From an uncultured Pedosphaera sp. (GTDB lineage: Bacteria; Verrucomicrobiota; Verrucomicrobiia; Limisphaerales; AAA164-E04): a stretch of DNA of 64,000 nt. A model generated the notes under the pieces. It searched no databases. It was given only the letters and a program-made list of their open reading frames with translations, and was not told the origin of the DNA. The stretch lies in the NCBI GenBank assembly GCA_965214825.1, contig OZ243981.1, positions 103,964-167,963 on the forward strand, in the 5' to 3' direction. The position numbers and the translations under genes were made by a program. Position 1 is the stretch's first letter; each line of letters opens with the position of its first letter. Shown piece by piece: positions 1,706-47,467 of this stretch.

Positions 1706-3345
1706 TCATTCCAAGTCCACCCCTTCTAGATTGGCACCCTCTAAATTTGCGCCTTCTCTTTTCGCCTCTTGCAAGTCTGCCTCCTGCAAGTTCGTCCCCC
1801 GCAAGTCTGCTTCCCGCAAGTCCGCCATCCGCAAGTCCGCCTCCTGCAAGTCTGCCTCCTGCAAGTCTGCCCATCGCAAGTTTGCCTTCTGCAAGTTCGC
1901 CTCCTGCAAGTGAGCCTCTTGCAAGTGCGCCCCCTGCAAGTCTGTCTCCTGCAAGTCTGCTCTCCGCAAGTCCGCCTTCTGCAAGTCTGCTCCCCGCAAG
2001 TGCGCCTCCTGCAAATGCGCCTCTTCCAAGTTCGTCTCCCGCAAGTTCGCCATCCACAAGTTCGCCTCCTGCAAGTCTGCCTCTTCCAAGTGCGCCCCCT
2101 GCAAGTGCGCCCCCTGCAAGTCTGCCTTCTGCAAGTCTGCCTCCTGCAAGTCTGCCCATCGCAAGTTTGCCTTCTGCAAGTGCGCCCCCTGCAAGTGCGC
2201 CCCCTGCAAGTGAGCCTCTTGCAAGTGAGCCCCCTGCAAGTCTGTCTCCTGCAAGTCTGCTCTCCGCAAGTCCGCCTTCTGCAAGTCTGCTCTCCGCAAG
2301 TCCGCCTTCTGCAAGTCTGCTCCCCGCAAGTTCGCCTCCTGCAAGTTCGCCTCCTGCAAGTCTCGCCTCTTGCAAGTTCGTCCCCCGCAAGTCTCGTGCC
2401 CCCTTCTGCAAGTTTGCCTCCGCAAGTTCGCCTCTTGCAAGTTCGCCTCTTGCAAGTCTGCCCCGCAAGTCTGCTCCCCGCAAGTCCGCCCCTTCTGCAA
2501 GTCCGCCTTCCGCAAGTGCGCAAGTTCCCCTTCTGCAAGTTCGCCCCCCGCAAGTCTGCCTCCCCCCGCAAGTCTGCATGCCAATCGCAAGTGTGCCCCC
2601 CACAAGTTCGTCCCCAGCAAGCAAGTTTGCCCCCTGCGCCTCCTGCAAGTTCGCCCTCCGCAAGTTTGCCTCCTGCAAGTGCACCCCCCGCAAGTTCGTT
2701 CCCAGCAAGTTCGCCTCCTGCAAGTTCTGCCTTCTTGCAAGTCTGCCCCCTGCAAGTCTGCCTTCTGCAAGTCTGCCTTCTGCAAGTCTGCATGCTGCAA
2801 GCGCGCCTCCTGCAAGTGCGCCCCTGCAAGTTCGCCGCTCAAGTTCGCCTCTTGCAAGTTCGTCCCCCGCAAGTCTGCCCCCTGCAAGTCTGCCTCCCGC
2901 AAGTGCGCCTCCTGCAAGTCTGCCTTCTGCAAGTTCGTCTGCTCCCCGCAAGTCCGTCCCCTGCAAGTGCGCAAGTCCCCTGCAAGTGAGCAAGTCCCCC
3001 CTGCAAGTGCGCCCCCTGCAAGTCTGCTCCCCGCAAGTCTACCTTCTGCAAGTGCGCCCCCTGCAAGTGCGCCCCTCCTGCAAGTTCGTCGTCTACCCAT
3101 CGCAAGTTTGCCTTCTGCAAGTTCGCCTCCTGCAAGTCTGCCTTCTGCAAGTTCGCCTCCTGCAAGTTTGCCTCCTGCAAGTTCGTCCCCCGCAAGTCTG
3201 CCTCCTGCAAGTCTGCATGCTGCAAGTTCGCCCCCTGCAAGTCCGCCTCCTGCAAGTTCGCCCCCCGCAAGTCTGCTCCCTGTAGAGCTGCTTTATTGCC
3301 TGATCGAAAGGCCGCGAGTTTCTCTTGGATTTCGTTTTCGGTCAT
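1706..3345 (-). pseudogene. Pentapeptide-repeat protein, multiply frameshifted
   Basis: About 1.55 kb of 15-bp units encoding A(D/N/H)L(Q/R)x. The N-terminus MTENEIQEKL is in ORF 2839..3345, the clean C-terminal run is in ORF 1706..3100, and the register switches frame repeatedly at about 2360-3100. Confidence 0.8.
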
Positions 3346-12767: not shown

Positions 12768-13742
12768 TCAAAAGAGGCGTCCGATGGCGAGGCCGAGAAC
12801 GCTGAGCGGCCCTTGGTCTTCGAGGCTTTCGGTGGCTTTTTCGACTTTTTGGAGGGCGGCGGTTGCGTTGTCGATTAGCGAGGCGTCGTTGACGAGGAGG
12901 CCGGCGCTGCCGTCGCCGCGGTTGATTTTCTCCAGGATTTCTCTCAGGTGAGTCATGGCGATTTTGGTTTCTTCGTAGAGCGCTTCGTCTGTCGCCAGTT
13001 TGCCGAGTGTGCCGCGCCCGGCTCGAAGGTCGCGCAGGGCATCTTGGGCTTCGGCGATAGCGGCGTCGAGTTTTTCCGAAGCTGTGTTCAGGCTGGAAAT
13101 GGTTTTAGTGGCGTTTTTGTAGAGTGCTTCGTCATGAATGAGCCGGCCGATGGTGCCTTCGCCGGCGGCAATTTGTGCGGCGCTGGTTTGGATGTTTTTG
13201 ACGATGTCCGAAACGCGGTTTTGGTTGGCTTTCAGGAAATCGGCCAGAGGCCCCAAGACGTCTGAGAATTGGTCGCCGCTGAAGGTGTCTGAAACTTTTT
13301 CGATGCCGGCGGCGACGCCGTTGATTCGGGTGATGAGCGCGCTGATGTCCGGTTGCTCGCGTGTGATCAATTCGGCTCCCGGCTGGACGGCGACTCCAGT
13401 TTTGCCGAATTCGATCGCCACGAAGTTTTGCCCCGCCAGGCCGGTGAAATGGATGGAGGCGGCGCTGTCTGTTTTGACGGCGGCGGCTTTGTCGGCGGCA
13501 ATGCGCATGTCCACTTTGACCTGGTTGTCCGCAAAGCCGATGCTTTCGACCTCGCCAATTTGAACACCTCCCATTTTGACGGGGTCGCCTTCTTCGAGGT
13601 CTTTGACATTTTGAAATCGAGCGCCGATGGCGACGTTCTTTTGGAAGAAGCGTAAGCCGCCGGCGATTTCAGTGAGCAAAAACAGGCCGAGAAACGCCAG
13701 GGCGAAAAACAGGCCAAGCCGAGTTTCAAGAGAATTTTTCAT
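12768..13742 (-). CDS. MCE/MlaD family substrate-binding protein
   Basis: N-terminal TM helix, MCE motif LEEGDPVKMGGVQIGEV, helical tail; ATG at 13742. Confidence 0.9.
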   Translation of the reverse strand: MKNSLETRLGLFFALAFLGLFLLTEIAGGLRFFQKNVAIGARFQNVKDLEEGDPVKMGGVQIGEVESIGFADNQVKVDMRIAADKAAAVKTDSAASIHFTGLAGQNFVAIEFGKTGVAVQPGAELITREQPDISALITRINGVAAGIEKVSDTFSGDQFSDVLGPLADFLKANQNRVSDIVKNIQTSAAQIAAGEGTIGRLIHDEALYKNATKTISSLNTASEKLDAAIAEAQDALRDLRAGRGTLGKLATDEALYEETKIAMTHLREILEKINRGDGSAGLLVNDASLIDNATAALQKVEKATESLEDQGPLSVLGLAIGRLF

Positions 13743-14514
13743 AGCGAGTTGGTTGATTATGGCGAGCAAGACGGCCTGCACCAAGAAAGTCTTTAAGGAA
13801 GGGATCGGAATCGGCGCTAAGAGTGGCCGGTGTGCCAATGCGCAGAATGGCGCCGTCCCGAATGACGGCGATTCGATCGGCAAGGCGGAAGGCCAGCTCG
13901 CGTTCGTGGGTGACGAGGATCGATGTAACGCCAGTCCGCTGGTTCAATTTTTCGATGGCGTCGCCGACTGTTGCAGCCATCAACGGATCTAACTCGCTCG
14001 TGGGCTCGTCATAAAGAATGAGCTGCGGATTGACGACGAGCGACCGCGCAATTGCTGCCCTTTTTTTCATACCTCCTGAAAGTTCGGCAGGGTATTGCTT
14101 TTCAACGCCTTGCAGTCCCACGAGAGCGAGGCTTTGGCGGACGATGCGTTCGATTTCCGCCGCTGGTTTGAGCTGGTGCTCGCAGAGATAAAGGCCGACA
14201 TTTTGGGCAACAGTCAGCGAGTGTAGCAAAGCGCCGGATTGAAAAACCATCGCCAGGCGATACCGATTGCGGACGGCTGGATGCCGAATGCTCTGGTTTT
14301 CAATCCGAATCTCCCCGCTGTCAGGCTCTTCGAGGCCAATCAAATGCCTGAGCAAAACGCTCTTTCCGCTGCCGCTAGGCCCCATGATGGCGAAAACTTC
14401 GCCGGGTTCGACGTGAAACTCGACATCCCTGAGCACAGGCCGGCCACCGAGGGAACGATGGAGACGAGAAACGTCCAGCCGAACGCTGTCAATCGATTCA
14501 GAAACCGCAGTCAT
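13726..14514 (-). CDS. mlaF: ABC transporter ATPase, MlaF-like
   Basis: GPSGSGKS Walker A, LSGGMKKR signature, LYDEPTSELDP; adjacent to the MCE gene. Confidence 0.88.
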   Translation of the reverse strand: MTAVSESIDSVRLDVSRLHRSLGGRPVLRDVEFHVEPGEVFAIMGPSGSGKSVLLRHLIGLEEPDSGEIRIENQSIRHPAVRNRYRLAMVFQSGALLHSLTVAQNVGLYLCEHQLKPAAEIERIVRQSLALVGLQGVEKQYPAELSGGMKKRAAIARSLVVNPQLILYDEPTSELDPLMAATVGDAIEKLNQRTGVTSILVTHERELAFRLADRIAVIRDGAILRIGTPATLSADSDPFLKDFLGAGRLARHNQPTRYEKFS

Positions 14515-14650
14515 CAATCCAAATAAAAAGGAAAATTTATCGGTTTAATTCCACTTTTGAGAACCAAACCACAATTTGACATTTCATCAAGATTGTTACC
14601 CTTTCACGTCCGGTTAAACGCCCATCCCTAACGCCAAACCCAATATTGTC

Positions 14651-14711
14651 CAGTTTCATTTTTAATGTCAAATCACAAATCATTGCCCGGATTAATCAAC
14701 TCGATAATTCC
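14651..14711 (-). repeat. Diverged copy of the tnpB promoter/start region (16211-16270)
   Basis: Hand alignment gives about 45 of 61 identical positions, including TTCATTTTTAATG; opens a 40-codon ORF (14659..14537, MKLDNIGF...) resembling the TnpB start MKQDKNRNIAF. Confidence 0.7.
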
Positions 14712-14735
14712 CTTTTTGTATCATTGCGCCTCTCC

Positions 14736-14914
14736 GTTACAACGGCTACCCCGTGCTTTAAGCACTGCGACGGTTGGAATCGAAATCGCCGCGTGAATTT
14801 AATTCGGTTACAACGGCTACCCCGTGCTTTAAGCACTGCGACACGAAAAAGGGAAGGCGGATTGGGACGGTTATTTATGTTACAACGGCTACCCCGTGCT
14901 TTAAGCACTGCGAC
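14736..14914 (-). CRISPR. CRISPR mini-array: 3 identical 36-bp repeats, 2 spacers (35 and 36 bp)
   Basis: Repeat GTCGCAGTGCTTAAAGCACGGGGTAGCCGTTGTAAC (minus strand) at 14736-14771, 14807-14842 and 14879-14914; unrelated spacers at 14772-14806 and 14843-14878; internal hairpin GTGCT-TAA-AGCAC. Orientation inferred from the GTC...AAC ends and the upstream gene. Confidence 0.88.
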
Positions 14915-15010
14915 AGCCACAGTTGACGCTTCTCAGAGACAGTAACCTGTCCCCCACATCTAACGAAGCCTGCAACCAGCTCCGGCCTGTTAAACAGGCA
15001 AAATCAGCAA
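14915..15010 (-). ncRNA. Putative omegaRNA/tracrRNA-like scaffold between tnpB and the array
   Basis: Hairpins GCCTGT-TTA-ACAGGC and GGGACAG-GTTA-CTGTCTC, the latter nested in a GATGT/GCGTC stem; GTTGCAGGCT (14967-14976) can pair with the repeat 3' end. Boundaries unknown. Confidence 0.6.
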
Positions 15011-16219
15011 TCAAATGGGAATCACATCCCGTTTGATTTTATTTACTCCCAAATCCCTGATGTTCTTAGCTGCGTTGATATCCGCATTATTCTTGTGGCC
15101 GCACTGGACACACTCGAATCTCGACTGCGTTTTTCTGTTAAACTTATATGTATGCCCGCACTTGTGGCACGTGCGGCTTGTGTTCTTCGGGTTAATTTTC
15201 ACAAGTTCAAAGGCTTTGTATTCAAGCATGTTTTGCAATCTGCCCCAGCCTGTGTCCAGGATAACGCGGTTGAGGCCTGCCTTTCCTTTAACATTCTTCC
15301 CCGGTTTTTCCGTGTTGCCCTTTGCGCTCTTGGTCATCCTTACAATATTGAGGTCTTCCACGACAACAGTGCTTGCTATGCCTGTGATCCTTTTGCTGGT
15401 GTGATGATGCCAGTTATGTCTAGCATTAGCAATCTGATTGCTTACTTTAGCTATCCGTTTCTTTGTCTCCTTTCTTCGATTGCTTCCCTTTGATTGTCGC
15501 GCTATTTTCTTTTGCAATTTCTTTAACTTTTTCACCAACGATTTCCAACCCGGCTCCGGTGTGCTTATCTTTTCGCTGTTGCTCAACATCACTTGACCTG
15601 CATTCATATCCACGCCAACGGCCCGGCTGTTATCCTTTTTTTCGGAAATGTCTACTTCGTAACAAACAATACAATGCCAGTTGCCGAGTACTCGCTTGAT
15701 TACGGCTTGCTTCGGCTTCGCTCTCGCGTAAGGGTTGCCGCCGCGCCGTCGGAGTAGCACGGAACCAGTTTTTGGAATGTAAAGCCAAGTGTTTCCGCTC
15801 TTTTCTGTAATTCGAACGTTCTGCGGGATAGTGAAAGAATTCCTGTCATCGTGTTTGCGCTTGGGCCACCCTTTCTTTCCGTCTATCGCTCCCTTCAGGG
15901 CATCGGCAAGGTATTTTAGCACATAGCGCACTTCGGCACACGGCAACTTTTCGAGCTCCGGTATTTCCTTGCGGAGAGGGGTGAATTGTTCGCAAAATGT
16001 TTTAAAGGAAGACGGCGGCTTCCTGGATTCGGCATATTTTCTCGGCACCCAGGGATTGTCCCTTAACTTCTTGTATGCCGTCCATTCCCGCTTGTTTTTG
16101 GCGAGGAAATAGTCCCATATAAAGCGGTTCGCTCCGGTAATCTTCCATAGCTCACGCGCTACATGTTTGCTGTTGGGATGCAGTTTGAATGCGATGTTTC
16201 GGTTTTTATCCTGCTTCAT
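15011..16219 (-). CDS. tnpB: TnpB-family (IS200/IS605 OrfB, Cas12f-like) RNA-guided nuclease, CRISPR-adjacent
   Basis: 402 aa; N-terminal FKLHPN..G..RFIWDYFL; RuvC-I VGVD204MN, RuvC-II VVVE288DL, zinc ribbon C351/C354/C370/C373, RuvC-III NAD380INAAKNI. Confidence 0.93.
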   Translation of the reverse strand: MKQDKNRNIAFKLHPNSKHVARELWKITGANRFIWDYFLAKNKREWTAYKKLRDNPWVPRKYAESRKPPSSFKTFCEQFTPLRKEIPELEKLPCAEVRYVLKYLADALKGAIDGKKGWPKRKHDDRNSFTIPQNVRITEKSGNTWLYIPKTGSVLLRRRGGNPYARAKPKQAVIKRVLGNWHCIVCYEVDISEKKDNSRAVGVDMNAGQVMLSNSEKISTPEPGWKSLVKKLKKLQKKIARQSKGSNRRKETKKRIAKVSNQIANARHNWHHHTSKRITGIASTVVVEDLNIVRMTKSAKGNTEKPGKNVKGKAGLNRVILDTGWGRLQNMLEYKAFELVKINPKNTSRTCHKCGHTYKFNRKTQSRFECVQCGHKNNADINAAKNIRDLGVNKIKRDVIPI

Positions 16220-16230
16220 TTTTAATGAGG

Positions 16231-16258
16231 ATTACAAATTATCGTCCGGTGGAGTCAA
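16231..16258 (-). promoter_or_regulatory. Putative sigma70 promoter of tnpB
   Basis: TTGACT-N16-TGTAAT ending 11 nt before the ATG; conserved as TTGATT-N16-TGTGAT in the duplicate at 14651-14711. Confidence 0.45.
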
Positions 16259-16263
16259 CTCAA

Positions 16264-17007
16264 TTATTCCAAGTAAAGAAGCATCCGGGTAAGAAAATAA
16301 TCGAGAATTAGAATCAAGACAATCGAATGGACCACCGCCTTGGTGACAGAGCGCCCGATGCCCCGAGGGCCGCCTCGGGTGGCCAACCCTTGCTGGCAAC
16401 TGATCAGCCCGATAACAAAGCCGAAGACGCCGCTCTTGAAAAGGGCGTTGAAAACAGCCGCCAAATCCAGCGCCGCCCTGAGATTGGAAAAGTAAAGAGC
16501 CATCGGCACATCGATCTCGCGGTTGAAGGCGGCCACCAAAGCCCCCCCCAGCCAGCCAGCAAAAATCGAAAATACCGCCAGCATCGGCAAAGCAATGCTG
16601 ATGGCCACCAGTCGCGGCAGGACGAGGTAAGCGACCGGGTTGATGTTCATGGTCCGCAGCGCGTCAATCTCTTGATAAACCTGCATCGAACCGATTTCCG
16701 CCGCCATGGCCGAGCCGATGCGCCCGGCGATCAAAATCGACATCATCACCGGAGCCAACTCCTTGCACATCGATAGTCCCACCAATTGGCCGATTGCTGA
16801 GGCCAGCCCGCGCTCCGCCAAAACGGGGCCCGATTGCAGCGCCAACACACCGCCGATGAAGAGCGAAAGAACGCAGGCCATCAAGAGGCTCGCGTTGCCG
16901 ATTTCAAACAATTGCTCGGCAATCTTTGCCCGCTGCCGCCATGTTAAACGCCAGCGGCAAAGCGTCCGCCAACCCAGGAGGAGAATCTCGCCGATTTGCT
17001 GAAACAT
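16264..17007 (-). CDS. mlaE: ABC transporter permease, MlaE family
   Basis: KELAPVM..AGRIGSAMAAEIGSM..EIDALRTM..P..YLVLPR motif. Confidence 0.93.
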   Translation of the reverse strand: MFQQIGEILLLGWRTLCRWRLTWRQRAKIAEQLFEIGNASLLMACVLSLFIGGVLALQSGPVLAERGLASAIGQLVGLSMCKELAPVMMSILIAGRIGSAMAAEIGSMQVYQEIDALRTMNINPVAYLVLPRLVAISIALPMLAVFSIFAGWLGGALVAAFNREIDVPMALYFSNLRAALDLAAVFNALFKSGVFGFVIGLISCQQGLATRGGPRGIGRSVTKAVVHSIVLILILDYFLTRMLLYLE

Positions 17008-41006: not shown

Positions 41007-44000
41007 TCACTCCGCCGGTTTCAGGCGGAAGAATTCCGCGCCTTTCCGCTCACGCGGAATCGACAATACGCCCTCCCGCGAAAAACGAGACGGCGCCACT
41101 GATTCCCACTCCCCACTCAAATCAGTCGTGCTTTGCAATGTCCCTTCACGCCAATGAATCTGCACCCCCCCGCCCGCAATCCGCACAATCTCCAAAGGGT
41201 TGTTGTTGTCGAGTGACAAGCGCCTGAAGTTCGTCGAGCTGGAATCCGGCAAGGTCAAGGTGCCTATCGTTGGCTCACAAAATGTCACCTCCGATTTCGG
41301 GAAACCTTGCAGGTTGAGACTCTCAATGTCCATGCCTTCGGGCACACACAAACTCTCCAAAGGATTGCCGTTGAGAACCAGCGAGCGCAAGCTCGTCAGG
41401 CCAGCGGGCAAGGCCAGGTTGGTCAGGGAATTGTTGCTGAGGTCTAGCGTTCTCAAGCTCGTCAAGTCCTCGGGCAAGGTCAGGGAGGTCAGTTGGTTGT
41501 CGTTGAGATACAGCACCCACAAGTTCGTTAAACCGTGAGGCAAGGTCAAAGAGGTCAGTTGATTGTCGTTAAAATACAGCCCTCTCGACTTGGCCAAGCC
41601 CTCCGGCAATGTCAGAGAGGGCAAGCGATTGTGATTGAGAAACAGCCACACCAAATTCGTCAAGCCATCGGGCAAAGTCAGGTGGGTCAAGTCATTGTTT
41701 CGGAGGTCTACAGACTTCGCGTTTGCATTCACCACCCGGTTAAAAGCACTGCCGTCGCTTGTCGTTCCGGTGATGAGGAGTGCTCCCTCAGTTATGGGCG
41801 GCTCTTCAGTTGTATGTGGTTTTTCGGTTGTCGGAGGTTCTTCGGTTGTGGGAGGCTCTTCAGTTGGCGGGGGCTCTTTAGTTGGCGGGGGTTCTTCGGT
41901 TGTGGGAGGCGGCGCAATCGTCTCTCCGTTCGCAGGATCGTAGAAGGTCACTGCTGATTTGGAATAGCCACGAAGCTCAAGACTTTCAATGTCCATGCCT
42001 TCGGGCGCCCGCACACTCTCCAAAGGATTGCCGAAGAGATACAGTCGTTGCAAGTTCGCCAAACCCTCCGGCAAGGTCAGGTTCGTCAGTTGATTATTAA
42101 AAAGATACAAGTGCTGCAAGTTCGTCAGACCCTCCGGCAAAGTTATGGAAGAGAGTTGATTGTCGAAGAGGTGCAGCCGCTGCAAGTTCTCCAGGCCAGC
42201 GGGCACGGTGAGGGAAGAGAGTTGAGTGTCGGAGAGAGACAGAGACTCCGTGCCGGCATCGACCTCCAAACGAAAAGCGTCGCCAGTGCTTGTCGTTCCG
42301 GTGAGGGTAATGAATGTCCCAGTCGTGGGCGGAAGATTGGTATTCGTTGTCGGGGGCTCTTCGGTTGTGGGGGGTTCTTCGGTTGTGGGCGGTTCTTCGG
42401 TTGTCGGTGGGATATTGGTATTGGTTGTCGGCGGGATGTTGGTATTGGTCGTCGGCGGGATATTGGTATTGGTTGTCGGGGGCTCTTCGGTTGTTGGGGG
42501 TTCTTCGGTTGTTGGGGGGATATTGGTATTGGTCGTCGGGGATTCCCCAGTTGTGGGATCGTAAAAGGTCACTGCTGATTTCGAAAAACCTTGAAGATCG
42601 AGATTTTCAAGGTTCATGCCATCAGGCACGCGCACACTCTCCAAAGGATTGCCGGAAAGATTCAGCGTTCTCAAGCTCGTCAGGCCATCGGGCAAGGCCA
42701 GATTGGTCAGGGAATTGTTGCTGAGGTCTAGCGTTCTCAAGCTCGTCAGGCCAGCGGGTAAGGCCAGATTGGTCAGGGAATTGTTGCTGAGGTCTAGCTC
42801 TCTCAAGCTCGTCAAGTCGCCGGGCAAGGTCAGGGAGGTCAGTTGGTTGTTGGAGAGATCCAGATAATTCAAGTTGGTCAAACCATCGGGCAGGGTGAAG
42901 GCGGTCAGTTGGTTGGCGTCGAGATACAGAACCTCCAAGTTGGTCAAGCCGGCAGGCAAGGTTACGGAAGCCAGATCAAAAAAGGAGTGGAGAGCCAGAT
43001 AGGTCTCGTTGGCGGCGACTTCTTGGCTGAAGGCACTGCCGTTGCTTGTCGTTCCGGTGATGAGGAGAGTTGGGAGCTCTGGTTCTGTCGGCTCTGTGGG
43101 AGGCGGCGTAATCGGCTCTTCGGGCGCGGGATCGTAAAAGGTCACTGCTGATTTCGAAAAACCTTGAAGATCGAGATTTTCAAGGTTCATGCCATCAGGC
43201 ACACGCAAACTCTCCAAAGGATTGCCGTCGAGCCACAGATTCTCCAAGCTGGTCATGCCGACGGGCAGGGTCAAGGTGGTCAGTTGGTTGTTGGAGAGAC
43301 GCAGCTCCGGCAAGCTCGCCATGCCGTCCGGCAGGGTCAAGGCGGTCAGGCGGTTGCTCCAGAGCTCCAGCAACTGCAAGCTGGTCGAGGTATTGGGCAG
43401 GGTCAAGGTGGTCAGTTGGTTGCTATGGAGACGCAGCTCCTTCAAGCTGGTCAAGTCATCGGGCAAGGTCAAGGTGGTCAGTTGGCGGTTGCGTTGGAGA
43501 TCCAGTCTCATCAAGCTGGTCAAGTCATCGGGCAAGGTCAAGGTGGTCAGTTGGTTACCGGAGAGAAGCAGCGTCTCCAAATTGGTCAAGCCATCGGGCA
43601 GGGTCAAGGTGGTCAGGCGGTTGTCACGGAGATCCAGAGATGTCTCCTTGGGATTGACTTGCCAGCTGAAGGCGCTGCCGTCGCTTTTAGTTCCGGTGAC
43701 GGTGAGAGTTCCCTCAGTTGGCGGAGGCTCTGATTCGATTGTCTCTCCGGTCGTTGGATCGTAGAAGGTCACTTCTGATTTCGGGAAGCCTTGAATAGGG
43801 AGAAATTCAATATCCATGCCCAGAGGCACACGCAAACTCTCCAAAGGATTGTTGGAAAGATTCAGCTCCTCCAAGCTGGTCAAGCCGACGGGCAAGGTCA
43901 AGGTGGTCAGTTGGTTGTTGTGGAGATGCAGCGTCTCCAAGCTGGTCAAGCCGACGGGCAAGGTCAAGGTGGTCAGTTGGTTGTCGTGGAGATACAGCCA

Positions 44001-46853
44001 CTCCAAGCTGGTCAAGCTGTCGGGCAGGGTCAAGGTGGTCAGTTGGTTGTTGTGGAGATGCAGCGTCTCCAAGCTGGTCAAGCTGTCGGGCAGGGTCAAG
44101 GTGGTCAGTTGGTTGTTGTGGAGATGCAGCGTCTCCAAGCTGGTCAAGGTATTGGGCAGGGTAAAGGTGGTCAGTGAATTGTTGTAGAGCTGCAGCTTCT
44201 GCAAGCTGGTCAAGTCATCGGGCACGGTGAAGACGGTCAGTTGGTTGTTGTGGAGATACAGAACCTGCAAGTTGGTCAAACCATCGGGCAGGGTGAAGGC
44301 GGTCAGTTGGTTGTTGTCGAGTTCCAGAACCTGCAAGTTGGTCAAAGTATTGGGCAGGGTGAATGTGGTTAGTGGGCTGTGGTCGAGATACAGCGACTTC
44401 AAGCTCGTCAAGGTATTGGGCAGGGTAAAGGTGGTCAGTTGGTTGTGGCCGAGACTCAGCCACTCCAAGCTGGTCAAGCTATCGGGCAGGGTAAAGGTGG
44501 TCAGGCGGTTGGCGGAGATCCACAGCCTCTTCAAGCTGGTCAAGTCATCGGGCAGGGTCAAGGTGGTCAGTTGGTTGTCGGAGAGATACAGAACCTGCAA
44601 GTTGGTCAAACCATCGGGCAGGGTAAAGGTGGTCAGGTGGTTGTAGCGGAGATACAGCTCCTTCAAGCTGGTCAAGCTATCGGGCAGGGTCAAGGTGGTT
44701 AGTTGGTTGCGTTGGAGTTCCAGCTTCTGCAAGTTGGTCAAACCATCGGGTAGGGTCAAGGTGGTCAGTTGATTGCGTTCGAGATTCAGATGCTGCAAGC
44801 TGGTCAAGCCATCGGGCAGGGCCAGATTGGTTAGCTGATTGCGTTCGAGATTCAGATTCGTCAAGCTGGTCAAGCCATCGGGCAAGGTTAGGGAAGCCAG
44901 GTCAAGGGAGCGGAGATCCAGAGATGTCTCGTTGGGATTGACTTGCCGGCTGTAGGCGCTGCCGTCAGTTTTGGTTCCGGTGATGGTGAGAGTTCCCTCA
45001 GTTGGCGGGGGCTCTGTTTCGATTGTCTCTCCGGTCGTTGGATCGTAGAAGGTCACTTCTGATTTCAGGAAGCCTTGAATAGGGAGAAATTCAATGTCCA
45101 TGCCCAAAGGCACACGCAAACTCTCCAAAGGATTGCCGTCGAGCCACAGCTCCTCCAAGCTGGTCAAGCCGACGGGCAAGGTCAAGGTGGTCAGTTGGTT
45201 GTTGGAGAGAAGCAGCTCCTTCAAGCTCGCCATGCCGTCCGGCAGGGTCAAGGCGGTCAGTTGGTTGTCGTGGATATCCAGCCACTCCAAGCTGGGCAAG
45301 CTGTCGGGCAGGGTCAAAGCGGTCAGTTGGTTGTTGTTGAGATCCAGCCACTCCAAGCTGGGCAAGCTGTCGGGCAGGGTCAAGGCGGTCAGTTGGTTGT
45401 CGTGGATATCCAGCCACTCCAAGTTGGGCAAGCTGTTGGGCAGGGTCAGGTTGGTCAGCTGATTGCTTTCGAGATTCAGATTCGTCAAGTTGGTCAAGCC
45501 ATCGGGCACGGTCAAGGTGGTTAGTTGGTTGTTGGAGAGACGCAGCTCCGGCAAGCTCGCCATGCCGTCGGGCAGGGTCAAAGCGGTCAGGCGGTTGCTC
45601 CAGAGCTCCAGCAACTGCAAGTTGGTCAAGGTATTGGGCAAGGTCAAGGTGGTCAGTTGGTTGCTGTGGAGACGCAGCTCCTTCAAGTTGGTCAAGGTAT
45701 TGGGCAAGGTCAAGGTGGTTAGTTGGTTGCGTTGGATATCCAGCCTCTGCAAGTTGGTCAAGTCATCGGGCAGGGTCAAGTTGGTCAAGCGGTTGCCGGA
45801 GAGACGCAGGTCCTTCAAGTTGGTCAAGCCATCGGGCAGGGTCAAAGCGGTCAGGCGGTTGCTCCAGAGATACAGCGTCTTCAAGCTCGCCATGCCGTCC
45901 GGCAGGGTCACGTTGGTCAGTTGGTTGTTGCGGAGACGCAGCTCCTTCAAGTTGGGCAAGGTATCGGGCAGGGTCAAGGCGGTCAGGCGGTTGAGGGAGA
46001 GATTCAGCCACTCCAAGCTGGGCAAGCTGTCGGGCAGGGTCAAGGCGGTTAGTTGGTTGCCGTCGAGACGCAGCAACTCCAATTTGGTCAAGCCATCGGG
46101 CAGGGTGTAGGTGGTCAGGTGGTTGCCTGTGAGATACAGCGTTCTCAAGTTGGTCAAGTCATCGGGCAGGGTAAAGGTGGTCAGTTGGTTGTACCAGAGA
46201 GAGAGCCAGCTCAAGTTGGTTAAGGTATTGGGCAATGTCAGATTGGTCAGGGAATTGTTGCTGAGGTTTAGCGTTCTCAAGCTGGTCAAGTCATCGGGCA
46301 CGGTGAAGGAGGTCAGTTGGTTGTCGGGGAGTTCCAGCTTCTCCAATTTGGTCAAGGTATCGGGCAAAGTCAAGGTGGTCAGGCGGTTGTCGTGGAGATA
46401 CAGCTCCTTCAAGTTGGTCAAGGTATCGGGCAGGGTGAAGACGGTCAGTTGGTTGTGTTGGAGATACAGCCTCTCCAAGTTGGTCAAAGTATTGGGCACG
46501 GTCAAGGCGGTCAGTTGGTTGTGTTGGAGTTCCAGCCTCGTTAAGCTGGTCAAGCCAGCAGGCAAGGTTAGGGAAGCCAGGTCAAGGGACTCGAGAGACA
46601 GAGATGTCGTGCTGGCATTGACTTGCCGGCTGAAGGCGCTGCCGTCGCTTTTAGTTCCGGTGATGGTGAGGGTTTGAGCGGCAGCTGGGAGGGTGATGGC
46701 CACGGCGAGGGCCAGCGCCAAGCCGATTCGATGTGGCGATGTTGGCCTGTTTTTGATGGGTTGCGGTTTGGCGGTTTTGTTGGCGGCGGTTGCCACCAGT
46801 TTCGAGTGGATGACGGATAATAGGTTCATATCTGCAGTGTCTTTCAGTTTCAT
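41007..46853 (-). CDS. Giant secreted leucine-rich-repeat protein, six capped LRR modules with Pro/Thr linkers
   Basis: 22-aa repeats LTxLTLPDxLTxLxxLxLxxNQ; signal-like LALALAVAITLPAAA; C-terminal LQSTTDL..W...FFRL domain. Start uncertain (ORF open from 47024). Confidence 0.92.
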   Translation of the reverse strand: MKLKDTADMNLLSVIHSKLVATAANKTAKPQPIKNRPTSPHRIGLALALAVAITLPAAAQTLTITGTKSDGSAFSRQVNASTTSLSLESLDLASLTLPAGLTSLTRLELQHNQLTALTVPNTLTNLERLYLQHNQLTVFTLPDTLTNLKELYLHDNRLTTLTLPDTLTKLEKLELPDNQLTSFTVPDDLTSLRTLNLSNNSLTNLTLPNTLTNLSWLSLWYNQLTTFTLPDDLTNLRTLYLTGNHLTTYTLPDGLTKLELLRLDGNQLTALTLPDSLPSLEWLNLSLNRLTALTLPDTLPNLKELRLRNNQLTNVTLPDGMASLKTLYLWSNRLTALTLPDGLTNLKDLRLSGNRLTNLTLPDDLTNLQRLDIQRNQLTTLTLPNTLTNLKELRLHSNQLTTLTLPNTLTNLQLLELWSNRLTALTLPDGMASLPELRLSNNQLTTLTVPDGLTNLTNLNLESNQLTNLTLPNSLPNLEWLDIHDNQLTALTLPDSLPSLEWLDLNNNQLTALTLPDSLPSLEWLDIHDNQLTALTLPDGMASLKELLLSNNQLTTLTLPVGLTSLEELWLDGNPLESLRVPLGMDIEFLPIQGFLKSEVTFYDPTTGETIETEPPPTEGTLTITGTKTDGSAYSRQVNPNETSLDLRSLDLASLTLPDGLTSLTNLNLERNQLTNLALPDGLTSLQHLNLERNQLTTLTLPDGLTNLQKLELQRNQLTTLTLPDSLTSLKELYLRYNHLTTFTLPDGLTNLQVLYLSDNQLTTLTLPDDLTSLKRLWISANRLTTFTLPDSLTSLEWLSLGHNQLTTFTLPNTLTSLKSLYLDHSPLTTFTLPNTLTNLQVLELDNNQLTAFTLPDGLTNLQVLYLHNNQLTVFTVPDDLTSLQKLQLYNNSLTTFTLPNTLTSLETLHLHNNQLTTLTLPDSLTSLETLHLHNNQLTTLTLPDSLTSLEWLYLHDNQLTTLTLPVGLTSLETLHLHNNQLTTLTLPVGLTSLEELNLSNNPLESLRVPLGMDIEFLPIQGFPKSEVTFYDPTTGETIESEPPPTEGTLTVTGTKSDGSAFSWQVNPKETSLDLRDNRLTTLTLPDGLTNLETLLLSGNQLTTLTLPDDLTSLMRLDLQRNRQLTTLTLPDDLTSLKELRLHSNQLTTLTLPNTSTSLQLLELWSNRLTALTLPDGMASLPELRLSNNQLTTLTLPVGMTSLENLWLDGNPLESLRVPDGMNLENLDLQGFSKSAVTFYDPAPEEPITPPPTEPTEPELPTLLITGTTSNGSAFSQEVAANETYLALHSFFDLASVTLPAGLTNLEVLYLDANQLTAFTLPDGLTNLNYLDLSNNQLTSLTLPGDLTSLRELDLSNNSLTNLALPAGLTSLRTLDLSNNSLTNLALPDGLTSLRTLNLSGNPLESVRVPDGMNLENLDLQGFSKSAVTFYDPTTGESPTTNTNIPPTTEEPPTTEEPPTTNTNIPPTTNTNIPPTTNTNIPPTTEEPPTTEEPPTTEEPPTTNTNLPPTTGTFITLTGTTSTGDAFRLEVDAGTESLSLSDTQLSSLTVPAGLENLQRLHLFDNQLSSITLPEGLTNLQHLYLFNNQLTNLTLPEGLANLQRLYLFGNPLESVRAPEGMDIESLELRGYSKSAVTFYDPANGETIAPPPTTEEPPPTKEPPPTEEPPTTEEPPTTEKPHTTEEPPITEGALLITGTTSDGSAFNRVVNANAKSVDLRNNDLTHLTLPDGLTNLVWLFLNHNRLPSLTLPEGLAKSRGLYFNDNQLTSLTLPHGLTNLWVLYLNDNQLTSLTLPEDLTSLRTLDLSNNSLTNLALPAGLTSLRSLVLNGNPLESLCVPEGMDIESLNLQGFPKSEVTFCEPTIGTLTLPDSSSTNFRRLSLDNNNPLEIVRIAGGGVQIHWREGTLQSTTDLSGEWESVAPSRFSREGVLSIPRERKGAEFFRLKPAE

Positions 46854-47316: not shown

Positions 47317-47467
47317 CGAAATAAGTATTTACAGGCTTTGGGGGTTTTGGAGGGAGGGTTGATGGCGATTCAGCTGGGGCTGCCGAAAGCCAGGGGATGC
47401 GGCGGGCAGCGGTCAACGGGTCGAGTGCCTGCGCATCACCCTGTTAAGCCCGTAAATGCTTATCGCG
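47317..47467. mobile_element. MITE-like element, copy 4
   Basis: TIRs CGAAATAAGTATTTACAGGCTT / AAGCCCGTAAATGCTTATCGCG; right half nearly identical to copy 1. Confidence 0.75.

What the first reader, a model, noticed from the sequence alone, without database searches (positions are those of the whole stretch)
14879..15010. omegaRNA-like scaffold runs straight into repeat 1 and carries anti-repeats
Seen (minus strand): after the tnpB stop come a GCCTGT-TTA-ACAGGC hairpin, GTTGCAGGCT, a GATGT-GG-[GGGACAG-GTTA-CTGTCTC]-TGAGAA-GCGTC nested stem, then AACTGTGGCT and the first repeat. GTTGCAGGCT can pair with the repeat 3' end AGCC(GT)TGTAAC (10 bp, one G-U, 2-nt bulge). ACTGTGGC can pair with the repeat 5' end GTCGCAGT. 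Alternatively the junction folds as GGCTGTC..GTGCT-TAA-AGCAC..GGTAGCC. From recall, the nested stem and the repeat core GTGCTTAAAGCACGGGG resemble TnpB omegaRNA and IS200/IS605 right-end hairpins. Inference: the repeat is a duplicated 3' piece of the omegaRNA. Scaffold+repeat+first spacer would be a natural single guide, while later crRNAs need the scaffold in trans as a tracrRNA.
Basis: partly seen in the sequence, partly recalled or inferred. Interest (0 to 1): 0.85.

Follow-up and report, generated by a model that had tools for sequence, protein, structure and literature searches.

The report
TnpB nuclease with nascent mini-CRISPR array
A small transposon-type RNA-guided nuclease (TnpB) whose guide-RNA gene ends in a three-repeat CRISPR array: a real but single example of the transposon-to-CRISPR intermediates first described in 2023-2025.

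Summary
The sequence features are all present at the stated coordinates. A 402-aa TnpB (15011-16219, minus) with an intact RuvC triad is followed by a structured 96-nt scaffold. Three identical 36-nt repeats with spacers of 36 and 35 nt come next.

- **Scaffold:** Its outer helix aligns with a covarying helix ("Stem B") in 30 sequences: 96.7% of cells paired against 69.5% shuffled, 0 of 500 shuffles as high.
- **Repeat position:** Every reference omegaRNA carries a further hairpin and tail before its guide. Here that slot is filled by 10 linker nt plus repeat 1, so the repeat is most likely the terminal omegaRNA module.
- **Insertion:** The whole 1.75-kb block sits between mlaE and mlaF, which overlap in 8 of 8 congeners. 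The array therefore did not pre-exist at this site.
- **Target:** Spacer 1 matches an accessory primase gene in the same genome at 34 of 36 positions, with both mismatches at the repeat-proximal end.
- **Anti-repeats:** They exist as described but are no better than chance. Equal pairings occur in 42-45% and 11% of background windows.
- **Limits:** No relative carries an array and no RNA data exist.

Verdict: a new single member of the known TranC / type V-U kind. The host type I-G adaptation genes may have built the array.

The parts
16264..17007 (-). mlaE permease gene, left border of the insertion
   Evidence: Pfam MlaE, E 3.6e-70. In 8 of 8 same-genus loci its stop overlaps the mlaF start.
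16205..16270 (-). Left copy (DR-L) of a diverged direct repeat of about 66 nt. It covers the likely left end of the element and the first ~18 nt of tnpB.
   Evidence: Aligned with 14645-14711; 54 identical columns out of 91 aligned; seed found (D3).
15011..16219 (-). tnpB, 402 aa, with RuvC D204/E288/D380 and a CxxC...CxxC zinc finger
   Evidence: Pfam OrfB_IS605, Cas12f1-like TNB and HTH. NCBIfam guided_TnpB 197.8 bits, cut-off 100. These residues are invariant in 25 homologues.
15009..15038 (-). 12-bp hairpin spanning the end of the tnpB reading frame
   Evidence: -12.5 kcal/mol, z -3.9, 0 of 200 shuffles as good.
14985..14999 (-). Hairpin GCCTGT-TTA-ACAGGC
   Evidence: z -2.3, 7 of 200 shuffles as good.
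14967..14976 (-).
   Evidence: The pairing exists (-9.6 kcal/mol), but 42-45% of 2632 background windows pair as well. In the predicted fold half of it sits in a local hairpin.
14925..14960 (-). omegaRNA 'Stem B' module: outer helix GATGT:GCGTC enclosing the hairpin GGGACAG-GTTA-CTGTCTC
   Evidence: Homologous columns in 30 sequences: 96.7% paired against 69.5% shuffled, covariation 0.759 against 0.255, 0 of 500 shuffles reach either value, slid controls 25-48%.
14915..14924 (-). Linker AACTGTGGCT. Its GGCT pairs with AGCC of repeat 1 to lengthen the terminal hairpin.
14879..14914 (-). Repeat 1 (36 nt), inferred to be the terminal omegaRNA hairpin plus an 8-nt tail
   Evidence: Positional argument.
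14843..14878 (-). Spacer 1 (36 nt). Positions 3-36 match an accessory primase-like gene of the same genome.
   Evidence: 34 of 34 at G000:C1:3265584-3265617.
14807..14842 (-). Repeat 2
14772..14806 (-). Spacer 2 (35 nt), no match found
14736..14771 (-). Repeat 3
14645..14711 (-). Right copy (DR-R) of the direct repeat: a second, tnpB-less left end
14576..14610 (-). Second Stem-B-like module (GACGT...ATGTC), right-end remnant of a tnpB-less mini-element
   Evidence: Pairs in the same columns of alignment A8.
14518..14575 (-). Hairpin (14571-14541), a tail, and a copy of about 20 nt of the ancestral mlaE end that restores the mlaF start
13726..14517 (-). mlaF-like ABC ATPase gene, right border of the insertion
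   Evidence: Pfam ABC_tran; synteny.

Best explanation
Window 14518-16263 is a strain-specific insertion that carries an immobilised IS200/IS605-type TnpB.

Its omegaRNA gene ends in a nascent CRISPR array. The 36-nt repeat is the last module of the omegaRNA, a hairpin plus an 8-nt tail that sits directly before the guide. That module has been duplicated twice, with 36- and 35-nt spacers inserted between the copies.

The transcript made of scaffold, repeat 1 and spacer 1 is then a complete omegaRNA-like single guide. It would direct the RuvC nuclease to a primase-like gene of an accessory element.

The resident copy of that target differs at spacer positions 1-2, next to the repeat. That would explain why the self-match is tolerated.

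Shown:
- the protein family and an intact catalytic triad
- the array
- the insertion
- the covarying omegaRNA helix
- the spacer match

Inferred:
- the repeat equals the terminal omegaRNA module (argued from position only)
- the RNA is made and loaded
- the nuclease cuts
- the host type I-G Cas4-Cas1/Cas2 inserted the spacers
For: 1. **TnpB identity.** Pfam and NCBIfam hits are above their cut-offs. D204, E288, D380 and four zinc-finger cysteines are invariant in 25 homologues. It aligns full-length to ISDra2 TnpB at E 2e-15. Its RuvC half matches RdCas12n at E 5e-32.

2. **omegaRNA scaffold.** The Stem B helix covaries across the window scaffold, the window tail, 3 in-genome paralogues and 25 metagenome loci. 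96.7% of cells are paired and 0 of 500 shuffles reach the observed pairing or covariation.

3. **Position of the repeat.** Between Stem B and the guide lie 58-87 nt in 28 of 28 metagenome loci. The three paralogous IS copies have 26, 26 and 37 nt there and diverge only after a shared tail. In the window, 46 nt run from Stem B to the end of repeat 1. They fold as a hairpin plus an 8-nt tail, and only for repeat 1.

4. **Linkage.** mlaE and mlaF overlap in 8 of 8 congener loci. The array must therefore have arrived with the element or been built after it arrived.

5. **Spacer 1.** It matches 34 of 34 inside a 476-aa DnaG-like gene that scores far below the dnaG cut-off (49.6 against 283.6 bits). 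That gene is not found in 30 relatives, and a true dnaG lies elsewhere. Contigs from three coded sequencing runs hold a variant of this target that matches 35 of 36.

6. **Immobility.** The element is single-copy. No Y1 transposase gene was found in the one-contig assembly.
Against: - **No conserved association.** 0 of 82 related loci show a CRISPR-like array. No protein above 48% identity at near-full length exists in the two large libraries. Nothing about the repeat can therefore be tested by covariation.
- **No sequence support for the repeat.** Its equivalence to the terminal module rests on position and fold. Three covariance models and local alignment gave nothing significant.
- **No RNA evidence.**
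- **Target cutting is doubtful.** The target has two mismatches at the position that TnpB and Cas12 enzymes tolerate least (established knowledge, recalled). The target-adjacent motif is unknown, so cutting of any present target is unproven.
- **Weak fit to the I-G ruler.** Spacer lengths of 36 and 35 nt lie at the short edge of the host I-G distribution, where 35 nt occurs in 2 of 203 spacers.
Confidence: 0.55

Rival explanations
1. The scaffold also acts in trans as a tracrRNA. GTTGCAGGCT pairs with the repeat 3' end and ACTGTGGC with the repeat 5' end, so crRNAs from repeats 2 and 3 are used as well. This is the TranC / Cas12f style of guide.
For: Both pairings exist. Splitting of the omegaRNA into tracrRNA and crRNA is the published route from TnpB to Cas12 (passages seen in PMC13565253, and in 10.64898/2026.03.27.714800). 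The tracrRNA of TranC systems is reported to lie between the effector gene and the array.
Against: The complementarity is no better than chance: 42-45% and 11% of 2632 background windows do as well, and 443 of 1000 shuffles. The 5' pairing competes with the cis hairpin. Half of GTTGCAGGCT sits in a predicted local hairpin. There is no covariation and no RNA data.
Confidence: 0.2
2. The array is a by-product. Ectopic spacer integration by the very active host type I-G Cas4-Cas1/Cas2 happened to land on the TnpB right end. The units are either not used by TnpB or are used by the I-G complex.
For: - The host has a type I-G locus with 204 repeats of 36 nt and spacers mostly 36-38 nt.
- The mini-repeat is 36 nt and matches the I-G repeat at 16 of 36 positions without gaps. 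This holds in one orientation only (8 of 36 in the other); shuffle p 0.008.
- Two other loci in the genome show an exact 36-nt duplication around a unique 37-nt insert.
Against: - Two successive integrations at one non-canonical site, against one at each of the other two, suggests preference or selection.
- The duplicated unit sits exactly where a new spacer becomes the TnpB guide.
- Three of the last 8 repeat nt differ from the I-G repeat. That stretch is where a type I 5' handle would come from (recalled).
- 0 of 203 I-G spacers has a long self-match, whereas spacer 1 does.
Confidence: 0.2
3. The spacers are former flanks. The units (right-end piece plus adjacent DNA) were gathered by transposition and recombination between element copies, not by a Cas1 integrase.
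For: Altae-Tran 2023 (PMC10691335, passages seen) lists serial duplication of omegaRNA segments as one possible origin of arrays and describes irregular omegaRNA arrays. The protospacer lies 73 nt from the left end of a paralogous TnpB element.
Against: - The protospacer is on the wrong side of that paralogue and not adjacent to it.
- It lies inside a coding region.
- The repeats are identical and the spacers have a uniform CRISPR-like length.
- No second copy of this element exists.
Confidence: 0.04
4. Coincidence: an ordinary IS landed beside an array that was already there.
For: Altae-Tran 2023 does not exclude this route in general.
Against: mlaE and mlaF overlap with no intergenic DNA in 8 of 8 congeners. 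The scaffold-and-array stretch gave no match in 60 relatives.
Confidence: 0.01

Closest known systems
TranC (transposon-CRISPR intermediates), for example LaTranC. The primary paper (Jin et al., Cell 2025) was not seen and is only recalled. I saw passages in PMC13565253, 10.1101/2025.09.28.678669 and 10.64898/2026.03.27.714800.
   Same: A TnpB-sized RuvC effector (reported range about 300-600 aa) with a short downstream array. Reported arrays have 3-20 repeats of 32-38 bp. There are no adjacent adaptation genes, the guide scaffold is encoded between gene and array, and spacers target mobile elements.
   Different: The protein is only distantly related to LaTranC (E 1e-6, C-terminal part only). 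No clade of relatives with arrays exists. The omegaRNA looks unsplit, because repeat 1 continues the scaffold in cis. No anti-repeat rises above chance.
Type V-U* candidate subtypes (Altae-Tran et al. 2023, PMC10691335; passages seen)
   Same: The array lies downstream of the gene where the omegaRNA guide would be. There is no cas1, cas2 or cas4 nearby, and the array is short.
   Different: Those groups were required to contain at least two TnpB clusters associated with CRISPR. This locus is a singleton.
Cas12n / type V-N (V-U4), RdCas12n, PDB 9J09 (PMC12216341; passages seen)
   Same: It is the best solved-structure match for the RuvC/TNB half (E 5e-32). That match includes an insertion after the catalytic Glu that ISDra2 TnpB lacks. 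In Cas12n the guide scaffold also overlaps the end of the gene.
   Different: This protein has 402 aa against 540, and the N-terminal half does not match. Whether it shares the A-rich PAM of Cas12n is unknown. The protospacer's 5' flank here reads GTTGG.
Canonical IS200/IS605 TnpB with omegaRNA (ISDra2, PDB 8H1J / 8BF8)
   Same: Full-length homology, the catalytic triad, the Stem B helix, and the scaffold at the 3' end of the gene.
   Different: Single copy, no TnpA in the genome, and an array in place of a single flank-derived guide.
Ectopic ('neo-CRISPR') spacer integration by Cas1-Cas2 (Nivala et al. 2018; recalled, not retrieved. Two searches on the term found no paper that holds it)
   Same: Duplication of a repeat-length target around a spacer-length insert at a non-CRISPR site.
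   Different: Here it would be a type I-G integrase acting on a TnpB guide-RNA gene. This is unproven.

Membership tests
TnpB (IS200/IS605 RNA-guided nuclease) | OrfB_IS605 RuvC domain plus zinc-ribbon/TNB domain, scoring above curated cut-offs | tested here: met
   Pfam PF01385 (55 bits, cut-off 30.5) and PF07282 (72.7 bits, cut-off 26.3). NCBIfam guided_TnpB 197.8 bits, cut-off 100.
TnpB (IS200/IS605 RNA-guided nuclease) | Intact RuvC D-E-D triad | tested here: met
   D204, E288 and D380 are invariant in alignment A1. E288 and D380 align within conserved motifs of RdCas12n.
TnpB (IS200/IS605 RNA-guided nuclease) | omegaRNA encoded at or after the 3' end of the gene, with conserved structure | tested here: met
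   Stem B covariation. Rfam has no match and the models from another clade are insensitive.
TnpB (IS200/IS605 RNA-guided nuclease) | Part of a mobile element: TnpA present, several copies | tested here: not met
   No identical or near copy; paralogues are at most 37% identical. PF01797 was not found in the genome. Serine-recombinase TnpA was not searched.
Type V CRISPR-Cas, TranC / V-U grade | TnpB/Cas12-like effector with a CRISPR array directly downstream on the same strand | tested here: met
   The array starts 96 nt after the stop codon. The transcription direction of the array is inferred, not measured.
Type V CRISPR-Cas, TranC / V-U grade | Association with CRISPR conserved among related effectors | tested here: not met
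   0 of 82 related loci show an array (L013, L014, L017-L096), by a seed scan. The two loci with many seeds proved to be other tandem repeats. Loci with 1-4 seeds were not inspected one by one.
Type V CRISPR-Cas, TranC / V-U grade | Spacers match mobile genetic elements | tested here: inconclusive
   1 of 2 spacers matches an accessory primase-like gene of the same genome (34 of 36). No match in phage, plasmid or viral collections.
Type V CRISPR-Cas, TranC / V-U grade | tracrRNA with an anti-repeat, or another functional split of the guide | tested here: inconclusive
   Complementarity is at chance level. No RNA data.
Type V CRISPR-Cas, TranC / V-U grade | crRNA-guided DNA cleavage | not testable with these tools
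   Needs an interference or cleavage assay.
Cas12n (type V-N) | Full-length homology to Cas12n, including the REC/WED half | tested here: not met
   Only residues 221-387 align. The N-terminal stretch scores 3.1 bits.
Satellite array of the host type I-G system | Repeat of the same family as the I-G repeat | tested here: inconclusive
   Same length (36 nt) and 16 of 36 identical, p 0.008. No copy of the mini-repeat occurs in the I-G array.

The most novel reading that the evidence does not exclude
This locus may catch the birth of a type V array in the act. On this reading the host's type I-G Cas4-Cas1/Cas2 integrase treated the last 36 nt of a TnpB omegaRNA gene as a pseudo-repeat. It inserted two spacers there and duplicated that module each time. 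Every new spacer then lands exactly in the guide position of an unsplit omegaRNA, so a transposon nuclease is retargeted to mobile elements before any tracrRNA/crRNA split or any change in the protein. The two other 36+37+36 loci in the same genome would be sister events.
Probability: 0.3. Interest if true: 0.8.

Novelty: new member of a known kind. Interest (0 to 1): 0.55.

Why it matters
TnpB nucleases linked to CRISPR arrays are the proposed stepping stones from transposons to type V CRISPR-Cas. They are also sought as very small genome editors. This example is 402 aa, lies far from the characterised TranC proteins, and seems to keep an unsplit guide RNA that runs into the array.

If the host type I-G integrase built the array, the locus offers a concrete and testable mechanism for how such arrays begin. 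As it stands, it is one locus without relatives, without RNA data and without activity data.

Tried and rejected
- **Rfam:** at E up to 10 on 14400-16400 there were 5 weak, unrelated matches and none on the scaffold.
- **Covariance models:** R1 (omegaRNA from Stem A to the end, 28 metagenome loci) and R2 (terminal module, 31 loci) gave no hit on the scaffold or repeats. R2 also missed the bona fide paralogous elements and L013/L017, so these negatives say little. R3 (3 paralogues) gave no hit on the scaffold in the whole window.
- **Local alignment:** scaffold against paralogue 3' ends was not significant. 57, 134 and 25 of 500 shuffles scored as high.
- **My first mapping, rejected:** I first aligned the nested stem to the terminal omegaRNA module, which would have put repeat 1 in the guide position (notes). 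A MAFFT --add run and alignment A8 showed that it is Stem B.
- **Terminal-module comparison:** global alignment of the module with its counterpart in the tail gave a degenerate result and was discarded.
- **Closer relatives, none found:**
  - 60 relatives: none at E 1e-30 or better
  - 400 genomes of the phylum: none at E 1e-60 or better
  - Genome contigs: 2 loci at 40% and 30% identity
  - metagenome scan: 80 loci, mostly 27-41% identical, two partial ones at 47%
- **Spacers and repeat against collections:** no match in phages or plasmids for the stretch from spacer 1 through spacer 2, and none in viral contigs for the repeat.
- **RNA evidence:** no RNA holder is listed among the 7 runs. The runs laid were contigs only.
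- **Synteny of the two 36+37+36 loci:** uninformative, because relatives lack those stretches.
- **Flanking motif:** I tried to derive a target-adjacent motif from the left-end flanks but could not settle one.
- **Not attempted or not available:** Supplements of the TnpB/Cas12 and TranC papers, which hold clade lists and guide RNAs that could place this protein, were closed or the paper was not held.
Full report
**What is there.**

On the minus strand, a 402-aa reading frame (15011-16219) is a TnpB.
- Pfam finds OrfB_IS605, the Cas12f1-like TNB domain and the HTH domain.
- NCBIfam guided_TnpB scores 197.8 bits against a cut-off of 100.
- D204, E288, D380 and four zinc-finger cysteines are invariant in an alignment with 24 homologues.

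After the stop codon come 96 nt of structured RNA-like sequence. Three identical 36-nt repeats follow (14914-14879, 14842-14807, 14771-14736), separated by spacers of 36 and 35 nt. The repeat occurs nowhere else in the 3.83-Mb one-contig genome.

**The block is an insertion.**

The flanking genes are mlaE and an mlaF-like ATPase. Nine of ten same-genus genomes gave an mlaE match, and eight of those loci also hold mlaF. In all eight the mlaE stop overlaps the mlaF start.

Window 14518-16263 (1746 bp) is therefore specific to this genome. An array cannot have been there before the element. The scaffold-and-array stretch (14700-15010) gave no match in 60 relatives.

The insertion has internal structure.
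- A diverged direct repeat of about 66 nt (16270-16205 and 14711-14645) covers the likely left end and the first codons of tnpB.
- The second copy is followed by a second, degenerate right-end module (14610-14576) and a hairpin.
- A tnpB-less mini-element thus sits behind the array.
- The right junction keeps about 20 nt resembling the ancestral mlaE end, which restores the mlaF start.

**Is the scaffold an omegaRNA?**

Rfam holds nothing that matches. I fetched 80 metagenome loci of homologues. Of the 47 I examined, 34 end in one strongly conserved 3' motif followed by divergent guides.

RNAalifold on 31 of these gave three helices with compensatory changes. Covariance models built from that clade did not score the window. 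They also failed on three paralogous TnpB elements of the same genome, so that negative is uninformative.

The decisive comparison came from aligning one module only. It consists of a 5-bp helix that I call Stem B, which encloses a variable hairpin. The alignment held 30 sequences:
- the window scaffold
- the window's tail module
- the three paralogues
- 25 metagenome loci

All five sequences from this genome pair in the homologous columns, with G-C and A-U where the majority has C-G and C-G. Overall 96.7% of cells pair against 69.5% in shuffles. The covariation score is 0.759 against 0.255. No shuffle out of 500 reaches either value, and slid controls give 25-48%.

I had first aligned it to the terminal module. 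That mapping is withdrawn.

**What the repeat is.**

In every reference, Stem B is followed by more scaffold before the guide.
- The 28 metagenome loci have 58-87 nt there.
- The three paralogues have 26, 26 and 37 nt. Their copies stay alike through a small hairpin and an 8-nt tail, and diverge only after that.

In the window the corresponding stretch is the 10-nt linker plus repeat 1, 46 nt in all. It folds into a hairpin closed by GGCT of the linker with AGCC of the repeat, leaving an 8-nt tail (-17.4 kcal/mol, z -2.17). Repeats 2 and 3 lack the linker and fold no better than shuffles.

My reading is that the repeat is the terminal omegaRNA module, duplicated. Scaffold plus repeat 1 plus spacer 1 is then a complete single guide. 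This rests on position and fold. No sequence similarity between the repeat and other terminal modules could be shown.

**The anti-repeats.**

Equal or better pairings with the repeat's 3' end occur in 42-45% of 2632 background windows, and with its 5' end in 11%. Of 1000 dinucleotide shuffles of the scaffold, 443 pair as well with the whole repeat.

They cannot count as evidence. A trans tracrRNA role is possible and has precedent, but nothing here shows it.

**The spacers.**

Positions 3-36 of spacer 1 match 34 of 34 at G000:C1:3265584-3265617. The site lies near the 3' end of a 476-aa gene.
- That gene has a DnaG-type zinc ribbon but scores 49.6 bits against the dnaG cut-off of 283.6.
- A proper dnaG lies elsewhere.
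- The gene was not found in 30 relatives.
- Its neighbours include an IS1595 transposase, a restriction specificity subunit and a broken TnpB paralogue.

It is an accessory gene and probably belongs to a mobile element. The two mismatches are the two spacer positions next to the repeat.

Contigs from three coded sequencing runs hold a variant of the target that matches 35 of 36. Seed-end mismatches in a resident target fit escape from, or tolerance of, self-targeting.

Spacer 2 has no match in the genome, phages or plasmids. The repeat has no match in viral contigs.

**Who could add spacers.**

The only Cas1 in the genome belongs to a type I-G system about 223 kb away around the contig ends, if the contig is circular. 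Its genes are Cas8g, Cas7g, Csb2, a Cas4-Cas1 fusion and Cas2.

Its array has 204 repeats of 36 nt. Spacer lengths are:

| Spacer length (nt) | Number of I-G spacers |
|---|---|
| 37 | 88 |
| 36 | 62 |
| 38 | 38 |
| 39 | 10 |
| 35 | 2 |

The mini-array has the same repeat length, and its repeat is 16 of 36 identical to the I-G repeat in one orientation only (p 0.008 by shuffling).

A genome-wide scan for 36-nt direct repeats at CRISPR spacing with unlike spacers was run outside the I-G array. After setting aside low-complexity and protein-repeat hits, it left the mini-array and two loci with an exact 36-nt duplication around a unique 37-nt insert. A fourth hit, a 35-of-36 repeat at period 70 (C1:3232634), was not examined.

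The two loci look like ectopic integrations. I could not confirm this by synteny. This supports, but does not prove, that the I-G integrase built the mini-array.

**Comparison with what is known.**

- **V-U\*:** Altae-Tran et al. 2023 described 40 V-U\* groups of TnpB-like proteins with downstream arrays. They proposed two origins: duplication of omegaRNA segments, or insertion beside an existing array (PMC10691335, passages).
- **TranC:** TranC systems are described as intermediates in which the omegaRNA is functionally split into tracrRNA and crRNA. Arrays have 3-20 repeats of 32-38 bp and no adaptation genes (passages). I did not see the primary paper.
- **Solved structures:** The RuvC half is closest to RdCas12n (E 5e-32). 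The whole protein aligns to ISDra2 TnpB (E 2e-15). LaTranC is distant (E 1e-6).
- **Relatives:** No protein above 48% identity at near-full length was found among 5.8 billion clustered sequences or 1.84 billion representatives. None of the 82 related loci has an array.

The locus therefore works like a TranC / V-U system. It fails the criterion of a conserved association, so it is a singleton of a known kind.

**Verdict.**

Its trans-acting part is unproven.

The concept itself is already published. The features that remain of interest are:
- the apparently unsplit guide
- the very young array
- the self-match with seed-end mismatches
- the possible role of a type I-G integrase

Noticed in passing
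L112:508-616 (G000:C1:676307-676415) and L113:517-625 (G000:C1:2435166-2435274): Two loci show an exact 36-nt direct duplication around a unique 37-nt insert. These are the dimensions of the host type I-G array. Neither the repeat nor the insert occurs elsewhere in the genome. Both loci lie at the ends of multicopy elements and have CTCCGC near the repeat boundary, as at the 5' end of the I-G repeat. They are candidate ectopic spacer integrations.
   Followed up: partly
L097 (G000:C1:3706514-3721382 and the neighbouring genes): The host type I-G CRISPR-Cas has a Cas4-Cas1 fusion and a very long array of 204 repeats. None of its 203 spacers has a long match in the own genome. A few match multicopy repeats over 21-30 nt.
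   Followed up: partly
window 14518-14711: A tnpB-less mini-element sits directly behind the array. It has a second left-end copy, a Stem-B-like module, a hairpin and a tail. A 41-codon open frame starts at 14659.
   Followed up: partly
window 14642-14671 (minus): A promoter-like TTGACA-18-AATATT lies inside the second left-end copy and points at mlaF. It could restore expression of mlaF and mlaD after the insertion broke the mlaE-mlaF overlap.
   Followed up: no
window 15009-15038 (minus): A strong 12-bp hairpin spans the last codons and the stop of tnpB (z -3.9). It may be an upstream omegaRNA stem.
   Followed up: partly
window 47317-47348 (minus): A weak match (E 1.2) to the terminal segment of the paralogous TnpB right end. 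It may be a solo right-end remnant.
   Followed up: no
L016:1501-1534 and contigs of coded runs X2, X4, X6: The primase target exists in two forms in the sequenced material. They differ at the spacer-proximal position and a few bases downstream.
   Followed up: partly
window 41459-46568 and 1763-3273: Long arrays of 66-nt and 15-nt tandem repeats. The genome holds many 66-nt-period repeat genes, which confound simple CRISPR scans.
   Followed up: no
G000:C1:3232634: The relaxed scan also flagged a 35-of-36 direct repeat at a period of 70 nt. It was not inspected.
   Followed up: no
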